Shown: positions 50,211 through 56,515 of the stretch, in pieces
Layout: each line of letters starts with the position of its first letter
How positions within the stretch are numbered: the first letter of the stretch is position 1
IMG/VR virus record: IMGVR_UViG_3300009499_000008
Location: 15,675-79,674 of that record
Direction: 5' to 3' (one strand)
DNA: 64,000 bases
Source: a virus
Notes under the pieces: generated by a model
Databases searched by the model: none
What the model saw: only the letters and a program-made list of their open reading frames with translations
Told to the model about the DNA's origin: nothing
Made by a program: the position numbers and the translations under genes

Positions 50211-51719
50211 TTATCCCTCACCTACAACAACTATCCCGTCCAAAAGTGTTCTGTAGCCGCCAGCCAAAACAAAATTCGGATCTCTGCAAACCGCGAGTTC
50301 AGTGATTGCAAGATTGTCGGGGATAGAAGAAGCTTCCTCCTCCGGAACGATGTACCACGAATTGCCATTATCAAGGCTCCGCAGTATCCTCCCGTCGCTG
50401 GTTGCGCTTGGCGGCGTGCCAACCTCATCAAAAGCATAAGCCATATAGAGCACTGAAGAGTTGACATAACCATAAGAAACGATGTCGAAGACGATACCGT
50501 TTCCGTCGCCAGGGAATTCCTTTCGTACCCAAGCTCCAGCCGCGTTTAAGGTATAGTATTGAAAACCATCTGCGCCACCAGTTAACCAGTGATACGGAGT
50601 TCGCATCCAAATGGTATGAAGATCCGAGGCAGTAGGCGATGTAGCCGCCGCAGCCCAAGTAAGACCGCCATTGAGTGTGACCACGACCGCACCATTTTCG
50701 CCGACGGCCACGATATTTCGCCCAGTCGCAGCGTGAACATCCAGAAGATTCTCTCCACCAGCAGCAACACCCGCATCCTGCACTTCATAAGCTGCGGCAG
50801 AAGTGATGTTATCTGTAAAGTAGATATAGCCATTTTGCCCAACGATCCAAATCTGTGTCGGAGAGATTGCAAAGATTGCCAAAGGCAACGCTCCGACTTC
50901 GAATACATTGGGTACTTCGGTCCAAGTGTCGAGATCAGAAAGCTCTGCATAGTGCAATCCCGTAGAACCATTCGAGACTATAGCTACGCGACTCCCGACA
51001 CAAGCCATCCCTGAGACATCTGCGTCATGGAGCGTGTCTATATCCCACTCGTTCCAGGTCAAGCCCTTGTCTAGAGATTCAAGTAGCTCAGGAAGATCAT
51101 AAGGAGAGCCTGCAACTGCTGCTGTAGCAGCCAGTAGCCTTCGACAACCCTCAGATTCCCAGCCACATTCGCCACAGGATAAGTCGTCACAGACGGCTAC
51201 AGCCAAAACTGGCGTGTCTGTTTCATCACCAGCGCGTTCAGCGTAAGTCATTCTTCTGATGAAGATGCGCGTCCAAGAAGTTATTGCTGCAGTGAGCATA
51301 ATCAAAGCCTCATCAGCAGGCTCCAAAGAGGAAAGTTCATCTGAAGATTCCTCCGTGAGTCCAGAACGCTCGAACTTGATGATTATCTCCCACCCTCTAT
51401 TGAAATCTGTGGGATCAGCACATCTTCCATAGTGCACATCCAAATCAAAATCGCATTCTTGTTCAAGAATTTCATTGACAAGCCCAAATCTAGCATCCAC
51501 AGATGTAGTGGGAAGTCCACCTTCACCTCTGATTACGTCTACCACCTCATATCGTCCATACGCTTCAGGAGAGGGACAATACACAGGTGTTAAATCACCA
51601 TGAGACTTAGTATAACCTCCAACTCTTGCACAACCGAGATAGATATTGTTATGAGCAGGATTTCGATAGGGCTGAATAAAAGCCCTTCCTTGCCCTCTTT
51701 TCCAGTAAATGTCTGTCAT
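50211..51719 (-). CDS. Major tail (tube) protein with C-terminal BNR/YCF48-like beta-propeller
   Basis: Position; S.D.G.TW repeats; AGGAGG SD. Confidence 0.7.
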   Translation of the reverse strand: MTDIYWKRGQGRAFIQPYRNPAHNNIYLGCARVGGYTKSHGDLTPVYCPSPEAYGRYEVVDVIRGEGGLPTTSVDARFGLVNEILEQECDFDLDVHYGRCADPTDFNRGWEIIIKFERSGLTEESSDELSSLEPADEALIMLTAAITSWTRIFIRRMTYAERAGDETDTPVLAVAVCDDLSCGECGWESEGCRRLLAATAAVAGSPYDLPELLESLDKGLTWNEWDIDTLHDADVSGMACVGSRVAIVSNGSTGLHYAELSDLDTWTEVPNVFEVGALPLAIFAISPTQIWIVGQNGYIYFTDNITSAAAYEVQDAGVAAGGENLLDVHAATGRNIVAVGENGAVVVTLNGGLTWAAAATSPTASDLHTIWMRTPYHWLTGGADGFQYYTLNAAGAWVRKEFPGDGNGIVFDIVSYGYVNSSVLYMAYAFDEVGTPPSATSDGRILRSLDNGNSWYIVPEEEASSIPDNLAITELAVCRDPNFVLAGGYRTLLDGIVVVGEG

Positions 51720-51730
51720 TTTATAACCTC

Positions 51731-52921
51731 CTAAGTTAAGGCGTATCCTACGCCCAAGTATTGCGAAACTATCAACCATGCCTCCCAAGCCCCGTTTTTA
51801 GGCCCAAATGGAGCTGTTAGCTGCTCAAAAGCGACGGGGCGTTCTGGCCGAGATTGCCATTCTTCTGCCAACTTCTCAGCTCCTCCACATCCACATATCG
51901 GTTCGGTAAGCAGCGCAGTTGCGAGGGCTGCCACAGCTCTATCAAAGGGCGCAGACATCCAACCTTTAAAATCTACTGGAAATCCTGCCCTATAATAGAG
52001 ATTAGCATAGTAAGCCTCATCTGTGATATTGAAATATGCAGCCTGCCATTTCGATGTAACACTGTCCCATACTGCAGGGACTGGTGTAACAATCCCCAGA
52101 TTCGGATTTCTTGCCCTCAGCACTCCAAATGCTGTTGCGAAATTTATCATAGTACTTCTCTCCCATTCAAAAACTATGGGAGCAAAACTTGTTCCAACTT
52201 CCGATGTATGAATATCATACACGAGCACTTCCTCTAAAAAATTGAGCGGATTATCGCCGTCTATGACAGCCCCATCATTCCAAAGATGAGGATGCACAAA
52301 TTGCGCACTATGTCCTTCAATCACTATCTGTGTACTCGTAAGTGCTATCTTGAGTCCACGAATACGTTCGACTTCATCTGTGTTAGTCGAAGGAAAAACA
52401 CCGATTCTTTCCTTGGTCAGCAATGTATTCGCATTGATATAAGGAACAACGACTCTAGCAGTTTCAGGAAAACCATCACCAGTTAAATCGAGGAGATGTA
52501 CTATATACCAACCACCAATTGCATCTATTTTCTTTCTTCCACCCTCTATAAAATAGCCGTATCGCGTCGTAATCGTCTTTCGTCGATCTTGATTTTGCGC
52601 TGGATAATATATCGTTCCATAATTAGTCAGTACTCTATCCTGTCTTGGATAAATATGCCTCTCAGCTTCAAACCATTGTGGAGCTGGTGAAAATTCGACC
52701 TCATTCAATATCATCCGTTCAGCCTGTGCAAGGGCGCGCGCCAACCCCTCTCTAGAAGCTTTGCCTTTATCCATCCAATCATATTGATACCAAATGGATT
52801 CACAATGTGATACCACAGGGAAAGCAAGACATCTCACTTGATTGAAATGTCTAGGATCAAGCCCTAGAATTTCTGCATAATGATCCAGGCTTAACAAAGT
52901 AGGCGTATCTGCTCTAGCCAT
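51731..52921 (-). CDS. Head-tail adaptor/connector-like protein
   Basis: Position; AL.QAE.MI, Y.AG, A..ALA. Confidence 0.6.
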   Translation of the reverse strand: MARADTPTLLSLDHYAEILGLDPRHFNQVRCLAFPVVSHCESIWYQYDWMDKGKASREGLARALAQAERMILNEVEFSPAPQWFEAERHIYPRQDRVLTNYGTIYYPAQNQDRRKTITTRYGYFIEGGRKKIDAIGGWYIVHLLDLTGDGFPETARVVVPYINANTLLTKERIGVFPSTNTDEVERIRGLKIALTSTQIVIEGHSAQFVHPHLWNDGAVIDGDNPLNFLEEVLVYDIHTSEVGTSFAPIVFEWERSTMINFATAFGVLRARNPNLGIVTPVPAVWDSVTSKWQAAYFNITDEAYYANLYYRAGFPVDFKGWMSAPFDRAVAALATALLTEPICGCGGAEKLAEEWQSRPERPVAFEQLTAPFGPKNGAWEAWLIVSQYLGVGYALT

Positions 52922-53146
52922 CTAACCCTCCAAAACCACAAAATCAGACAAATGATTAAAATAATCCCTGTCACGAGCCTTGACTAATTTAGTTGCATTT
53001 GCACCACCACCGAAACGATAGATGCCCCCTGTTGGAGTTTTGTAAGTTCTAGATCCCAAAAGAGTTCCCGTATACTGAACGGTCAATAATCCGTCAGTAT
53101 TCCTCGACTTTGGATTATTCAATTTTTTCCTGCATCTACAGCCCAT
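52922..53146 (-). CDS. Small head-module protein (shared domain copy 3)
   Basis: MGCRC; YTG...GSRTYKTPTG..YRF. Confidence 0.75.
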   Translation of the reverse strand: MGCRCRKKLNNPKSRNTDGLLTVQYTGTLLGSRTYKTPTGGIYRFGGGANATKLVKARDRDYFNHLSDFVVLEG

Positions 53147-53379
53147 TACACCACCTTGAACTGATCTAATTGCTGAGTGAAATAATAAACATCATCTTTC
53201 AGAACGGAAAATGTTGTGCGATCCTTTCCATCAAATCTATATCGATTTCCAAGGGGTGTATTCACTGTTCTCGAACCTCGGTTATCTCCAATATATTCAA
53301 GAATTACGATAGTCCGTCCTCGCAAATCTGGAGGCCGACTCCTCAGACTAGAAAGGTTTTTCCTACAACCACAACCCAT
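53146..53379 (-). CDS. Small head-module protein (shared domain copy 2)
   Basis: MGCGC; YIGDN.GSRT..TPLGNRYRFDG. Confidence 0.75.
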   Translation of the reverse strand: MGCGCRKNLSSLRSRPPDLRGRTIVILEYIGDNRGSRTVNTPLGNRYRFDGKDRTTFSVLKDDVYYFTQQLDQFKVV

Positions 53380-55956
53380 CTACTGAACCTCGACAACTTG
53401 AAAATCCAACATTCGTTCAAAAAAGTGTGCATCCTTGACAGGAACCCAAGATTCGCGTTTACCACGACCATCAAATCTATAACGATTTCCCAGAGGAGTC
53501 TTATAAGTCCGTGCTCCCATGTTATCCCCTGTGTATTTGATTAATACTTTCGTTGGTTTTGGCACATCCTTTTTCTCTGTTTTCTTATGGCCCAATAAAG
53601 GATCTCCAGGCAGTATTACTAATCCAGATTCTTTAGGAGGCAGCGCCTCTAAAGTAGCATATCTCTGTCTGAACTCCTTCATCAATTCTGGAGCGTTGTC
53701 GAGACACTCTTCTCTCCTCTTTCCACTCTCATAATGATAAGAAAACAATGACTCAGGAACTCTTATTCCATGATAACCTTTATGAGCTAATTGTACAGTG
53801 TAATCCCAATCTTCCCAGACAGGAATATCCTCATTGAATCCACCAACTTCGTCAAAAGCTTCCCTTGGATGAAGAAAAGTGATGACGAATAAAGCCTGCT
53901 TTTTTAGCCGCTCAAAGTCCCACGCCTCCGCCTTATGAATTTTTCCTTCTGGTAACGATACCCAGTCTGTATAGATAATAGATTTTGGTCTGACGGCAGC
54001 AACCTTTAAAGTCTGCCGCAAAAAGTGCTTGTCTAATTCATCATCTGCGTCTAAGAAGAGTAGGCACTTCCCTCGTGCATGTTGCACACCCAAATTTCGT
54101 GCAGCACTGACGTTACCGTACTTTCTTTTTCTCCGCCAAATTATAAATGGGTAACGCTCAACATAAGGTATTATACCATACTTTTTGATTTTCCCCAAAG
54201 TTGTATCGTCTACTACAATCAGTTCCCATCTTGAATCAGTCTGTGCCTTCACCGATTCGATGGCCTTCACCAAAACTTCTTCGTGTCCATCACCGACAGG
54301 AATGATAATGGAAACCAACGGCTGGTCGTAACTGAACACAGGGTGAGAGTAGTTTTTTGGAGTTGCAACGCTGGCAAACGGCTGTGGCCCACCATTAGCA
54401 GCGGAAATATAATTCAACCAGTTAGGTTCTTTCTCTTTTGTTTTGTTAGAGACACTATCTTTATGAATACGATAGATCATCGTCGGTGCTTGTGAGGCGT
54501 GTATGGAAGTGAAACCACATAGCCCGATATTAGTCCACAATTCGGCATCTTCCCCAAGTGTGAAATGAGTTTTGTACCCTCCAGCCCTGAAAAAAGCGTC
54601 TCGACGAAGCAGGTTACAAGAGGGTACTTGATTTCGTCTCTGTAACTGCGCGGCGAAATCGAAGCCGTTGGGCCAACTTCCTCTGACAGATCCACGGGGG
54701 GTGTGAAGCTCAAGACTGCCAAAGGAGATCCCTATAGAACGATCCTCTAATAAGGGAGGGAGCAGTGTTTCCAAGAACTTCTCTTTCAAAGTATCGTCAG
54801 CATCTAAAAAGCACAAGAACTCGCCCTTGGCCTCCATCGCACCCCTATTCCGTGCGTTCGCTACTCCACGGTTGGACTGTGCTAGGACTTTAAATTTTGG
54901 GTCGTGATCGACGGCCTCGTTAATTTTTATTAAGGAATCATCTTTAGAACCGTCATCGATTATCAGACATTCCCATCCAGTAAAAGATTGTGCTTTTACG
55001 GAATTGATAGCGTCCACGACGTAATCGGCATAATTGTAACAAGGGATTATTATTGTAATCTGTGGGCCTTTATGCTCTTTTAGTGCTGACTCATAGACTT
55101 CGACGTATTTGGGGATAATGTCTTTCCAGTCATGTTTTAAGGCTTCTTGTCGAGCGGCTTTGGACAATCTGTCAAAGTTTTCGATACAGTAGCGTAGTCC
55201 TGTCACAGTGTCAGTATAGTCATCTGGCTTGGCTAGATAACCCGTGACTTTGTGTTTGACCAATTCGACTGCATTCCCCCAAGCCCAGGCCAAGACGGGC
55301 ATTCCTGCTGCGAAGGCTTCGAGAATCCCAATCCCAAACGTCTCTTTTGTCGATCCAAAGTAGATACCATTCTTGTAGAGAATTTCCTTCATAGTCTCAT
55401 AGGGTTGAAGACCCAGCACGTCTAAATTTTTGGCTGGGGAACCGAAAGTGGACAGAAACTTCACATCAGGGCATAGGGTAGCCAGTTTCTCTACGGGCGC
55501 GGGAGTACAGACAGCATCCACTCGATTTTTATTGAACACAACAGTCATTGATTTATTTGTGGAAGGTTCTTCCCACTCATCAAGATTAATTCCATGTGGC
55601 ACGATGATTGGGCAGAATCCCATATCTCTGATGAACATCTCTCCGACCCACGGGGACGGGACTGTAACCTTTTTTACTTTTCGAACTGCCTCGATTATTC
55701 TTTTGTTAGATTTCGACATCCACCTTGGAAGAGAAAACTCGCCCGTGGGATAGAGGCCATGATTGTGGAGAACGTGAGGTATTGTATCAGCGAAGGGCAA
55801 AACATGCGCGGCCAAGATTTCCGCTTCTAGAGGACCCTCAACGATTTCTACAGATTTTGGTAAGTGACGCCTTTGCTCAATTACGACGCGTTCGACCCCT
55901 GTGATGGACTTTTGTGAGGGATCAATAGTTGGTGTAGGACTAAGGAAGAGTTTCAT
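53380..55956 (-). CDS. Trifunctional glycosyltransferase GT4+GT2+GT2 with C-terminal shared domain
   Basis: ETFGIGILEAFAAGMP; IIIPCYNY..DDGS..LDADD; IIIPV..DD..LDADD..WEDWD; YTGDNMGARTYKTPLGNRYRFDG. Confidence 0.88.
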   Translation of the reverse strand: MKLFLSPTPTIDPSQKSITGVERVVIEQRRHLPKSVEIVEGPLEAEILAAHVLPFADTIPHVLHNHGLYPTGEFSLPRWMSKSNKRIIEAVRKVKKVTVPSPWVGEMFIRDMGFCPIIVPHGINLDEWEEPSTNKSMTVVFNKNRVDAVCTPAPVEKLATLCPDVKFLSTFGSPAKNLDVLGLQPYETMKEILYKNGIYFGSTKETFGIGILEAFAAGMPVLAWAWGNAVELVKHKVTGYLAKPDDYTDTVTGLRYCIENFDRLSKAARQEALKHDWKDIIPKYVEVYESALKEHKGPQITIIIPCYNYADYVVDAINSVKAQSFTGWECLIIDDGSKDDSLIKINEAVDHDPKFKVLAQSNRGVANARNRGAMEAKGEFLCFLDADDTLKEKFLETLLPPLLEDRSIGISFGSLELHTPRGSVRGSWPNGFDFAAQLQRRNQVPSCNLLRRDAFFRAGGYKTHFTLGEDAELWTNIGLCGFTSIHASQAPTMIYRIHKDSVSNKTKEKEPNWLNYISAANGGPQPFASVATPKNYSHPVFSYDQPLVSIIIPVGDGHEEVLVKAIESVKAQTDSRWELIVVDDTTLGKIKKYGIIPYVERYPFIIWRRKRKYGNVSAARNLGVQHARGKCLLFLDADDELDKHFLRQTLKVAAVRPKSIIYTDWVSLPEGKIHKAEAWDFERLKKQALFVITFLHPREAFDEVGGFNEDIPVWEDWDYTVQLAHKGYHGIRVPESLFSYHYESGKRREECLDNAPELMKEFRQRYATLEALPPKESGLVILPGDPLLGHKKTEKKDVPKPTKVLIKYTGDNMGARTYKTPLGNRYRFDGRGKRESWVPVKDAHFFERMLDFQVVEVQ

Positions 55957-56515
55957 CTTTCTCCTTTAACATAGAATGTTTATAAACCCATGAGATCCAC
56001 ATTAAGAATTCATCTTGTGTCATAGTATTTTTCGCTTTATTACACGTACTGCAGCAAGGCACGACATTATCGATTTCATAGCCGCGCTCATTATCTACTC
56101 GATCTAATCCATTGAAAGAGCATAGCCCATTATATACTGAACTTGATCGTAAAGAGGGTGCTGCACCACAATAATAACATGGTTGGGATGAAAGTTCCTC
56201 AACCTGATCGGCTGTTAGACTCCAAACGTAATCTCTTTGTTTTGCTGAATGCTTCAATATAGTGATTAAGCGATTAAGCGTCGCAACTTTATTGGACAAT
56301 TTACGTGTCTTGTTATATGCTTTTGTTCTCTCATTCCTTAAGCAACCACAACTTTTAGTGGAGCCGTCTCGAAGGCTACTTCCGCGTATAATAACTTCAT
56401 TACCACAAGTGCAATGGCATAACCACATAGCTGCTTTATGCTTATACCCTACTTGCTGTAATATAGTCAGCCTTCCATATTGATTGTCAATCTCATTAAT
56501 AACTGACCGTCCCAA
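55940..56515 (-). CDS. Free-standing HNH endonuclease
   Basis: YGRLT, WLCHCTCG, TKSCGC, CYYCG, GLDRVDN..GY...NVVPCC..CN. Confidence 0.88.
   Translation of the reverse strand: MGRSVINEIDNQYGRLTILQQVGYKHKAAMWLCHCTCGNEVIIRGSSLRDGSTKSCGCLRNERTKAYNKTRKLSNKVATLNRLITILKHSAKQRDYVWSLTADQVEELSSQPCYYCGAAPSLRSSSVYNGLCSFNGLDRVDNERGYEIDNVVPCCSTCNKAKNTMTQDEFLMWISWVYKHSMLKEKDETLP

What the first reader, a model, noticed from the sequence alone, without database searches (positions are those of the whole stretch)
52922..53550. A ~55-aa domain shared by the triple glycosyltransferase C-terminus and two small head-module proteins: candidate virion docking tag
Seen: GT tail IKYTGDNMGARTYKTPLGNRYRFDG...V..KD..FF....DFQVV; ORF 53146 LEYIGDNRGSRTVNTPLGNRYRFDG...V..DD..YF....QFKVV; ORF 52922 VQYTGTLLGSRTYKTPTGGIYRFGG...V..RD..YF....DFVVL. 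The two stand-alone copies start with MGCxC plus a basic linker, and all three are tandem just upstream of the head-tail adaptor. Inference: a small capsid- or neck-binding module was fused to the GT to tether the enzyme to its substrate, or the small proteins are adaptors or acceptors. This links the glycan genes physically to morphogenesis.
Basis: partly seen in the sequence, partly recalled or inferred. Interest (0 to 1): 0.8.

Follow-up and report, generated by a model that had tools for sequence, protein, structure and literature searches.

The report
Shared tag on phage glycosyltransferase
A phage sugar-adding enzyme ends in a small, previously undescribed domain that the phage also makes as free mini-proteins, in relatives from a second start site inside the enzyme gene. 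This is the layout phages use to steer a head protease to the capsid, so the domain is probably an address label, but no binding has been shown.

Summary
A ~55-aa domain occurs exactly three times in this complete 79.7-kb phage genome: ORF74, ORF77 and the C-terminus of the 858-aa GT4-GT2-GT2 enzyme (pairwise BLASTP E 1e-13 to 8e-17). All three are under purifying selection and translationally coupled, directly upstream of a 396-aa protein whose model matches phage head-to-tail adaptors.

The domain has no significant Pfam, NCBIfam, PHROG, PDB or GenBank-phage match. About 50 metagenomic relatives exist, either as small M-x-C-x(0-2)-C + linker + domain proteins or as the same module after a GT2 domain.

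New here:
- In seven distant relatives the whole module sits in frame inside the GT gene, behind a conserved Shine-Dalgarno + ATG (a nested gene), and no free copy exists.
- Where the GT tail has lost the Cys motif (window clade, L010), one or two free genes follow.
- Six cellular GT2 relatives lack the tag.

The best reading is a shared targeting or co-assembly module, like protease/scaffold nested pairs (lambda C/Nu3). The free form sits where YqbF sits in PBSX-like phages and weakly resembles it in fold.

The binding partner, presence in the virion and the role of the Cys pair are all untested. I rate it a new variant of a known kind, of moderately high interest.

The parts
53380..55956 (-). 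858-aa triple glycosyltransferase (GT4 + GT2 + GT2) that carries the tag at its C-terminus
   Evidence: Pfam Glycos_transf_2 E 8e-52 (two stretches), Glycos_transf_1 E 9e-16, Glyco_transf_4. Homologues of 860-908 aa with the same tail occur in 10 phage records.
53383..53571 (-). GT-borne copy of the ~55-aa beta domain (residues ~796-858), without the Cys motif and without an internal Met
   Evidence: HMM positions 18-82 at residues 791-857. E 8e-17 to ORF77. dN/dS 0.075.
53146..53379 (-). ORF77: free form, MGCGC + basic linker + beta domain. Sister of the GT tail in the tree.
   Evidence: AF2 model has order b1-b2-b3-b4-a1-b5, pLDDT 78. Tree support 96/97 with the GT tail. GAGG lies 8 nt before the ATG.
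52922..53146 (-). ORF74: second free form, MGCRC + basic linker + beta domain. An older paralogue.
   Evidence: Start overlaps the ORF77 stop (TAATG) with AAGGTGG upstream. dN/dS 0.187.
51731..52921 (-). 396-aa head-to-tail adaptor-like protein with a large beta-rich insertion and invariant H25, C40 and C343-x-C345. A candidate docking partner.
   Evidence: VIA-wide top hits are phage connectors/adaptors (JBD30, Mu, HK97 gp6, YqbG; Z 5.6-6.7) aligned to the N- and C-terminal helices. The ESM Atlas gives leads to Phage_connect_1/HCP. Invariant residues come from 9 homologues. The model is low-confidence (pLDDT 57).
50211..51719 (-). ~502-aa presumed major tail protein with a BNR/Ycf48-like propeller. 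Always follows the adaptor-like gene in relatives. A candidate glycosylation target.
   Evidence: Pfam PSII_BNR E 2.5e-8. Position is directly before the chaperone pair and tape measure. Homologues are conserved in all loci. The likely true start is the ATG at 51719, because homologues are 502 aa.

Best explanation
The ~55-aa beta domain is a portable targeting or co-assembly module. This phage lineage makes it in two forms: attached to the end of its large glycosyltransferase, and free as a small protein with an N-terminal M-x-C-x(0-2)-C motif and a flexible linker. In most relatives one gene gives both forms: the full GT-tag protein, and a short tag-only protein started at a conserved internal ribosome-binding site and ATG. 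In the window's clade the nested gene became separate genes and was duplicated (ORF77, ORF74), and the GT kept a copy without the Cys motif. Both forms carry the same domain, so they should bind the same thing: each other, or one site on the nascent head or neck. The adaptor-like gene comes next, and the free form sits where YqbF sits in PBSX-like phages. A few enzyme molecules would then be brought to where many free copies assemble, as a head protease is brought into the procapsid by the domain it shares with the scaffold (lambda C/Nu3, herpesvirus UL26/UL26.5). Shown: homology of the three copies; restriction to phage GT tails; the conserved internal SD+ATG; the either/or pattern of nested versus free genes; purifying selection; the adaptor-like neighbour. 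Inferred: that the internal start is used, that the domain binds a structural protein or itself, and that this serves virion glycosylation.
For: (1) Three significant paralogues and no others in the genome. (2) A profile search of 1.84 billion representatives returned 57 hits. Four are repeat-protein false positives, 14 carry the module after a GT2 domain in several architectures (triple GT, double GT2, single GT2), and most of the rest are small free proteins with Cys at position 3. (3) Ten other IMG/VR phage records, down to 34% GT identity, keep the order GT cluster, GT-tag, adaptor-like, tail-tube-like, chaperone, tape measure. (4) In six of those records (L008, L009, L011-L014) and one MAG contig (L016) the full M-x-C..C module lies in frame inside the GT gene. 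A perfect 5-nt SD lies 3-6 nt before that ATG in 6 of the 7, against 6 of 417 other in-frame ATGs and 12 of 65 gene starts. In 9 of 14 fused representatives Met sits exactly two residues before the first Cys, and in 3 more V or L does. (5) Whole-record scans: records with a nested start have one copy only. Records whose GT tail lacks the motif have one (L010) or two (window clade) extra free genes. (6) ORF77 and the GT tail are sister groups (96/97), so the free genes arose by local duplication. (7) Six cellular GT2 relatives lack the tag. (8) The small-domain model's rank-2 structural match of 48,161 chains is YqbF (Z 4.1, rmsd 1.7 A over 44 residues), and the next gene's model matches YqbG and other adaptors. 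The order capsid, YqbF, YqbG is documented for PBSX-type phages (PMC11526630).
Against: No experiment or complex prediction shows binding to anything. Fold matches are weak: Z about 4 is below the tool's stated noise level, and the YqbF Pfam model does not match. Use of the internal start is inferred from sequence only, and no RNA data exist. All loci with readable context belong to one broad phage lineage, so synteny with the adaptor is phylogenetically confounded. The Cys motif and the HHH_5/E3_binding tails found in some relatives are not explained by simple docking. The 492-aa 'capsid' protein is unverified.
Confidence: 0.5

Rival explanations
1. The free small proteins are the glycan acceptors or carriers. 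Their flexible N-terminal arm (Cys pair, often an S/T/P/G-rich linker) would be S- or O-glycosylated. The GT's own copy of the domain would pair with them to present that arm to the active sites, and the glycosylated mini-protein would then decorate the virion.
For: The Cys pair sits at a fixed position 3 in every free form that has it, and residue 2 is mostly small (G, A, S, P; V once), which as a rule favours Met removal (the Met-removal rule is my own knowledge). Linkers in many relatives are S/T/P/G-rich. GT2 enzymes that S-glycosylate Cys exist (SunS type; own knowledge). The phage carries about ten GT domains next to these genes.
Against: No Ser/Thr/Asn in the domain is invariant. The window's linkers are basic rather than S/T-rich. 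14 family members lack the Cys motif. Nothing shows the proteins are modified. This rival is compatible with the docking reading and does not exclude it.
Confidence: 0.2
2. ORF74/77 are ordinary head-completion or packaging accessory proteins of the YqbF / lambda gpFI positional class, with no role in glycosylation. The fusion to the GT would be a by-product of tight translational coupling, through loss of a stop codon.
For: They lie between the head genes and the adaptor, like YqbF (PMC11526630) and gpFI. gpFI bridges the capsid and the terminase-DNA complex (PMC13595911). There is weak fold similarity to YqbF. Some relatives carry HhH tails, as YqbF carries a helical C-terminal domain (the YqbF architecture is from my own knowledge).
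Against: The fusion recurs after GT2 domains in at least three different architectures and is kept over a divergence at which synonymous sites are saturated. In the window clade the GT keeps its own copy, which is the most conserved of the three (dN/dS 0.075), although free genes exist. No free-standing copy was found away from a GT in any record with readable context.
Confidence: 0.15
3. The free form is a regulator of the enzyme. It would be a competitor or built-in inhibitor that shares the GT's C-terminal domain and titrates its binding site or blocks its activity until assembly.
For: The nested in-frame arrangement has a strong internal SD, implying an excess of the short form.
Against: There is no evidence of toxicity or any need for inhibition of a GT. 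The either/or pattern and the conserved position before the adaptor fit assembly better.
Confidence: 0.08
4. The module binds nucleic acid (basic linker, Cys pair as half of a zinc knuckle, HhH tails in relatives) and brings the GT to DNA, for example for DNA sugar modification or for packaging with the genome.
For: The window's linkers are basic. HHH_5 follows the tag in several GT fusions and free forms.
Against: Linkers in most relatives are acidic, Pro-rich or Gly-rich, not basic. Two Cys alone do not make a zinc finger. The gene sits in the structural module. HhH and E3_binding modules also mediate protein contacts.
Confidence: 0.05

Closest known systems
Nested in-frame protease/scaffold gene pairs (lambda C/Nu3, Mu I/Z, herpesvirus UL26/UL26.5)
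   Same: An enzyme and an abundant short protein share one C-terminal domain because the short one starts at an internal ribosome-binding site in the same frame. The shared domain gives both the same assembly address. A conserved internal SD+ATG is seen in relatives here.
   Different: The enzyme is a glycosyltransferase, not a protease. The shared part is a ~55-aa beta domain with a Cys-pair leader, not a helical scaffold. In the window itself the nested gene has been replaced by two separate genes. Expression of the short form and capsid binding are untested.
YqbF of Bacillus subtilis PBSX/skin-type prophages (PDB 2HJQ, Pfam PF14553)
   Same: A small protein encoded between the capsid gene and the gp6/YqbG-type adaptor gene (PMC11526630). 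Its N-terminal domain is the rank-2 structural match of the ORF77 model (Z 4.1, rmsd 1.7 A, 44 residues). The next gene here matches YqbG and other adaptors. Relatives of the tag carry small helical C-terminal modules (HHH_5, E3_binding).
   Different: There is no sequence match to PF14553. The Z score is in the noise range. YqbF has no Cys-pair leader and no known link to glycosyltransferases. Its function is itself unknown.
Virion glycosylation by mycobacteriophage glycosyltransferases (Che8 type; own knowledge)
   Same: Phage-encoded GT genes that plausibly modify capsid and tail proteins. The GT cluster here lies inside the structural operon.
   Different: To my knowledge those GTs have no described docking domain or nested partner. 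Here the cluster is far larger, and no glycosylated protein has been shown.
Lambda gpFI packaging chaperone (PDB 2LSM)
   Same: A small protein encoded between the capsid gene and head-tail joining genes, with a flexible linker and a small C-terminal domain that contacts the capsid (PMC13595911).
   Different: The structural match is insignificant (Z 2.7). There is no sequence similarity. gpFI is not fused to an enzyme.

Membership tests
YqbF family (Pfam PF14553) | Match to the family HMM | tested here: not met
   No hit of PF14553 to the genome at E <= 10, nor to any of 39 family members at E <= 5.
YqbF family (Pfam PF14553) | Same fold as the YqbF N-terminal domain (2HJQ) | tested here: inconclusive
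   VIA-align Z 4.1, rmsd 1.7 A over 44 residues, rank 2 of 48,161 chains, but below the tool's noise guide of Z 7-8. Foldseek did not list it.
YqbF family (Pfam PF14553) | Gene placed between the capsid gene and the gp6/YqbG-type adaptor gene | tested here: met
   ORF77 and ORF74 directly precede the adaptor-like 396-aa gene. The reference order comes from PMC11526630. The capsid gene upstream is unverified and is separated from them by the GT cluster.
Nested in-frame genes with a shared C-terminus (lambda C/Nu3 type) | In-frame internal start codon with its own ribosome-binding site inside the longer gene | tested here: met
   Met in relatives L008, L009, L011-L014 and L016: perfect SD in 6 of 7, against 6 of 417 background ATGs. 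Not met in the window itself, where the short forms are separate genes and the GT tail has no internal Met.
Nested in-frame genes with a shared C-terminus (lambda C/Nu3 type) | Both the long and the short product are made | not testable with these tools
   No RNA or proteome data; no RNA run is listed for this sequence.
Nested in-frame genes with a shared C-terminus (lambda C/Nu3 type) | The shared domain binds the capsid or another assembly partner | not testable with these tools
   No complex prediction tool was available and no experiment exists.
HK97 gp6 / SPP1 gp15-type head-to-tail adaptor (applies to the 396-aa neighbour) | Adaptor helical fold | tested here: inconclusive
   21 of the top 30 VIA-wide hits are phage neck, connector, adaptor or portal-tail entries, including HK97 gp6 and YqbG. 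But Z is only 5.6-6.7 and the model pLDDT is 57. Pfam found nothing.
Phage virion glycosylation systems (mycobacteriophage type) | Glycans attached to capsid or tail proteins by phage GTs | not testable with these tools
   Only the presence of GT genes in the structural module is shown.
Lambda gpFI | Fold of the gpFI C-terminal domain (2LSM) | tested here: inconclusive
   Z 2.7, rank 23.

The most novel reading that the evidence does not exclude
A previously undescribed address-label system for a virus-modifying enzyme. A new beta domain, made both free (from a nested start or from duplicated genes) and on the end of a multi-domain glycosyltransferase, would co-assemble on the nascent head or neck beside the adaptor, with its Cys pair bridging copies or partners through a metal ion. 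This would place the enzyme on its structural substrate. It would be the first docking tag known for virion glycosylation and the first nested-gene targeting pair outside protease/scaffold systems.
Probability: 0.35. Interest if true: 0.8.

Novelty: new variant of a known kind. Interest (0 to 1): 0.65.

Why it matters
How phage glycosyltransferases find their structural substrates is unknown. A small portable domain that marks both the enzyme and an abundant partner would make that question testable with pull-downs, virion mass spectrometry and tail deletions.

It would also extend the nested-gene targeting logic of head proteases to a second enzyme class. It would define a new domain family, roughly 50 clusters at 50% identity with no database name. 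It would give a possible handle on the long-unexplained YqbF-position genes between capsid and adaptor genes. A ~55-aa capsid- or neck-binding tag could also be useful for displaying cargo on phage particles.

Tried and rejected
**Searches that gave nothing for the domain**
- Pfam, PHROGs and NCBIfam gave no significant family. The only lead is a weak match to phrog_24467, of unknown function: 5 of 39 members with best E 0.05, and E 0.006 in a single-genome scan.
- A PDB sequence profile search found nothing at E <= 10.
- Foldseek against PDB and BFVD found nothing at E <= 0.001. The top weak rows were GINS B-domains and PsaD.
- tblastn of ORF77, of a tag+HhH relative and of the whole GT against 50,697 GenBank phage records found no match to the tag. 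GT matches stop before residue 790.
- The word-based search for longer fused forms found none, but the exhaustive profile search did.

**Context searches that failed**
- Several related-loci scans failed or found nothing, so the context of most distant free-standing members is unknown.
- Cluster look-up showed that distant members are unnamed metagenomic proteins on short contigs.

**Other dead ends**
- No RNA holder is listed for this sequence, so the question of expression stays open.
- The 492-aa 'capsid' protein could not be identified by Pfam, PHROGs or PDB profile.

**Ideas set aside**
- Eukaryote-style N-myristoylation or palmitoylation of MGC: the host is prokaryotic and many relatives have A, P or S at position 2.
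- A lipoprotein signal: there is no signal peptide or lipobox.
- An intermolecular zinc site shared with the adaptor's invariant CxC: attractive but untested. The adaptor has its own invariant Cys and His that could complete that site by itself.
Full report
**Setting.** The window is bases 15675-79674 of a complete 79,674-bp IMG/VR virus record with direct terminal repeats. The best DNA holder is a subsurface metagenome. On the minus strand the order is:
- small and large terminase and other head genes, across the genome ends;
- a 492-aa protein of unverified identity;
- a run of glycosyltransferase and methyltransferase genes;
- an HNH gene;
- the 858-aa GT4+GT2+GT2 enzyme;
- ORF77, then ORF74;
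- a 396-aa protein;
- a ~502-aa BNR-propeller protein;
- the tail chaperone pair, the tape measure and Dit.

- The two small ORFs and the last ~63 residues of the GT align over ~55 residues with 19 invariant positions. Pairwise BLASTP E-values are 8e-17, 1e-13 and 3e-13.
- A family profile finds these three places and nothing else in the genome.
- Each small ORF has 12-13 homologue clusters at 66-87% identity.
- Against a relative with saturated synonymous sites, dN/dS is 0.135 (ORF77), 0.187 (ORF74), 0.075 (GT tail) and 0.098 (396-aa neighbour).
- The genes are coupled (TAG-ATG, TAATG, TAG-ATG), each with a Shine-Dalgarno sequence.

**What the domain is.**
- No library names it. Pfam, PHROGs and NCBIfam give nothing significant, PDB sequences give nothing, and GenBank phages give nothing.
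- An exhaustive profile search of 1.84 billion cluster representatives returned 57 hits. Four are repeat-protein false positives.
- The others are of two kinds. The first kind is small proteins that begin M-[G/A/S/P/V]-C-x(0-2)-C, continue with a variable low-complexity linker and end in the domain. The second kind has the same module directly after a GT2 domain, in triple-GT (~860-1020 aa), double-GT2 (~620 aa) and single-GT2 (268-499 aa) proteins.
- Some members add a C-terminal HHH_5 or E3_binding module. One protein has the domain repeated in tandem.
- The AlphaFold model built with a 39-sequence alignment has pLDDT 78. The N-terminal arm is disordered and the fold order is b1-b2-b3-b4-a1-b5.
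- Foldseek finds no significant match in PDB or BFVD.
- The independent VIA-align scan of 48,161 chains gives Z 4.2 for a primase domain. At rank 2 it gives the N-terminal domain of B. subtilis YqbF: Z 4.1, rmsd 1.7 A over 44 residues. These Z values lie within the tool's stated noise range.

**Context in relatives.**
- Ten other IMG/VR phage records were recovered (L005-L014). GT identity to the window runs from about 80% down to 34%.
- All keep the order GT genes, large GT ending in the tag, homologue of the 396-aa protein, homologue of the ~502-aa protein, chaperone, tape measure.
- Seven loci came from a scan of bacterial and archaeal genomes for relatives of the tag-adjacent GT2. Six lack the tag. 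The seventh is a 2.9-kb MAG contig that repeats the phage arrangement.

**A nested gene.**
- In L008, L009, L011, L012, L013, L014 and L016 the GT tail contains the complete module, including the Cys motif. That motif is preceded by Met: LMACSSC, LMGCGC, RMPCGC, FMACSSC, LMSGCEGC.
- The DNA before that ATG reads AAGGAG, AAGGAG, AGGAG, AAGGAGG, GGGAGG, GGAG and GAGGAG, mostly 3-6 nt upstream.
- A perfect 5-nt SD precedes 5 of the 6 tag ATGs scored (L016, added, makes 6 of 7). The background is 6 of 417 other in-frame ATGs in long genes of the same loci, and 12 of 65 gene starts.
- The peptides encoded across the SD differ (GKETL, GGEQEL, GRREL, TREER, REETL). This points to selection on the RNA rather than on the protein.
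- Among 14 fused representatives from the global search, 9 have Met exactly two residues before the first Cys. Three more have V or L there, which could be GTG or TTG starts.

**An either/or pattern.**
- Whole-record scans show exactly one copy in each record of the nested type.
- There are two copies (GT tail without the motif plus one free gene) in the L010 record.
- There are three copies in the window clade.
- In the tree ORF77 is sister to the GT tail (support 96/97) and ORF74 branches earlier. The window's tandem trio is therefore a local resolution and duplication of the nested arrangement.
- Every phage examined can thus make both a GT-borne and a free form.

**The neighbour.**
- The 396-aa protein has no Pfam hit, and its model is poor (pLDDT 57).
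- Even so, 21 of the top 30 VIA-wide hits are phage neck, connector, adaptor or portal-tail entries. They include JBD30, Mu gp36, HK97 gp6, YqbG, Bxb1 and P74-26, with Z 5.3-6.7. They align to the N- and C-terminal helices around a ~240-residue insertion. The ESM Atlas points the same way.
- In PBSX-type phages the order capsid, YqbF, YqbG is documented, and YqbG is the gp6/gp15-like connector (PMC11526630).
- So two adjacent genes here give their best weak structural matches to two adjacent genes there. I count this as a lead that raises the YqbF comparison above chance. It is not proof.
- Nine homologues of the 396-aa protein share invariant H25, C40 and C343-x-C345.

**Mechanism.**
- An enzyme and an abundant short protein sharing one C-terminal domain through an internal in-frame start is the layout of lambda C/Nu3, Mu I/Z and herpesvirus UL26/UL26.5. 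In those pairs the shared domain carries the protease to the capsid interior (established knowledge).
- By analogy, the tag gives the GT and the free protein one binding specificity, either for each other or for one site on the head or neck. This is my best reading, at about 0.5.
- It does not say what is bound, and it does not explain the Cys pair. My guesses for the Cys pair are metal-bridged pairing or a site of modification.

**Rivals.** All remain open and are laid out with tests in the rival section:
- the free forms are the glycan acceptors;
- they are YqbF/gpFI-class head accessories whose fusion to the GT is incidental;
- they regulate the enzyme;
- the module binds DNA.

**Limits.** There are no expression, proteome or binding data. 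All contexts that could be read come from one broad phage lineage.

Noticed in passing
window 51731-52921 (-) and homologues in L005-L014: The adaptor-like 396-aa protein has invariant H25, C40 and C343-x-C345 across nine homologues at 25-82% identity, which suggests a metal site. Homologues in L011-L014 add a four-Cys knuckle (CxC...CxxC) in an insertion. At ~400 aa it is about three times the usual adaptor size, because of a beta-rich insertion at residues ~80-320.
   Followed up: partly
window 55940-56515 (-): A 191-aa HNH-like gene sits between the 430-aa GT and the triple GT. A homologue is present in L007 but absent from the otherwise collinear L005, so it looks like a mobile homing endonuclease inside the GT cluster.
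   Followed up: partly
L008:8316-8630, L009:8408-8716, L011:9119-9412, L013:9184-9519, L014:1508-1792: In the relatives with a nested start, a conserved ~95-110-aa membrane protein (Pfam DUF1360, E 5e-5) lies between the GT-tag gene and the adaptor-like gene. The window has no counterpart there.
   Followed up: partly
L008:10399-10695, L009:10703-10999, L013:10744-11040 and longer forms in L011, L014: A conserved ~98-aa protein (motif GPPSL..LGLP.E...RLHN.L) lies between the adaptor-like and tail-tube-like genes in the distant lineage. It is absent at that position in the window.
   Followed up: no
window 50211-51788 (-): The listed TTG start of the 525-aa BNR-propeller protein overlaps the previous gene by 58 nt. 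Homologues are 492-502 aa, so the real start is probably the ATG at 51719 (MTDIYW...).
   Followed up: partly
protein P0063 (292 aa, metagenomic): One relative appears by eye to carry three tandem copies of the beta domain (two scored by the profile) followed by a helix-hairpin-helix-like tail, with no GT and no Cys motif.
   Followed up: no
IMG/VR record holding L005 (G008): This close relative of the window's phage is classed by IMG/VR as a provirus, so its flanks might reveal the host. I did not examine them.
   Followed up: no
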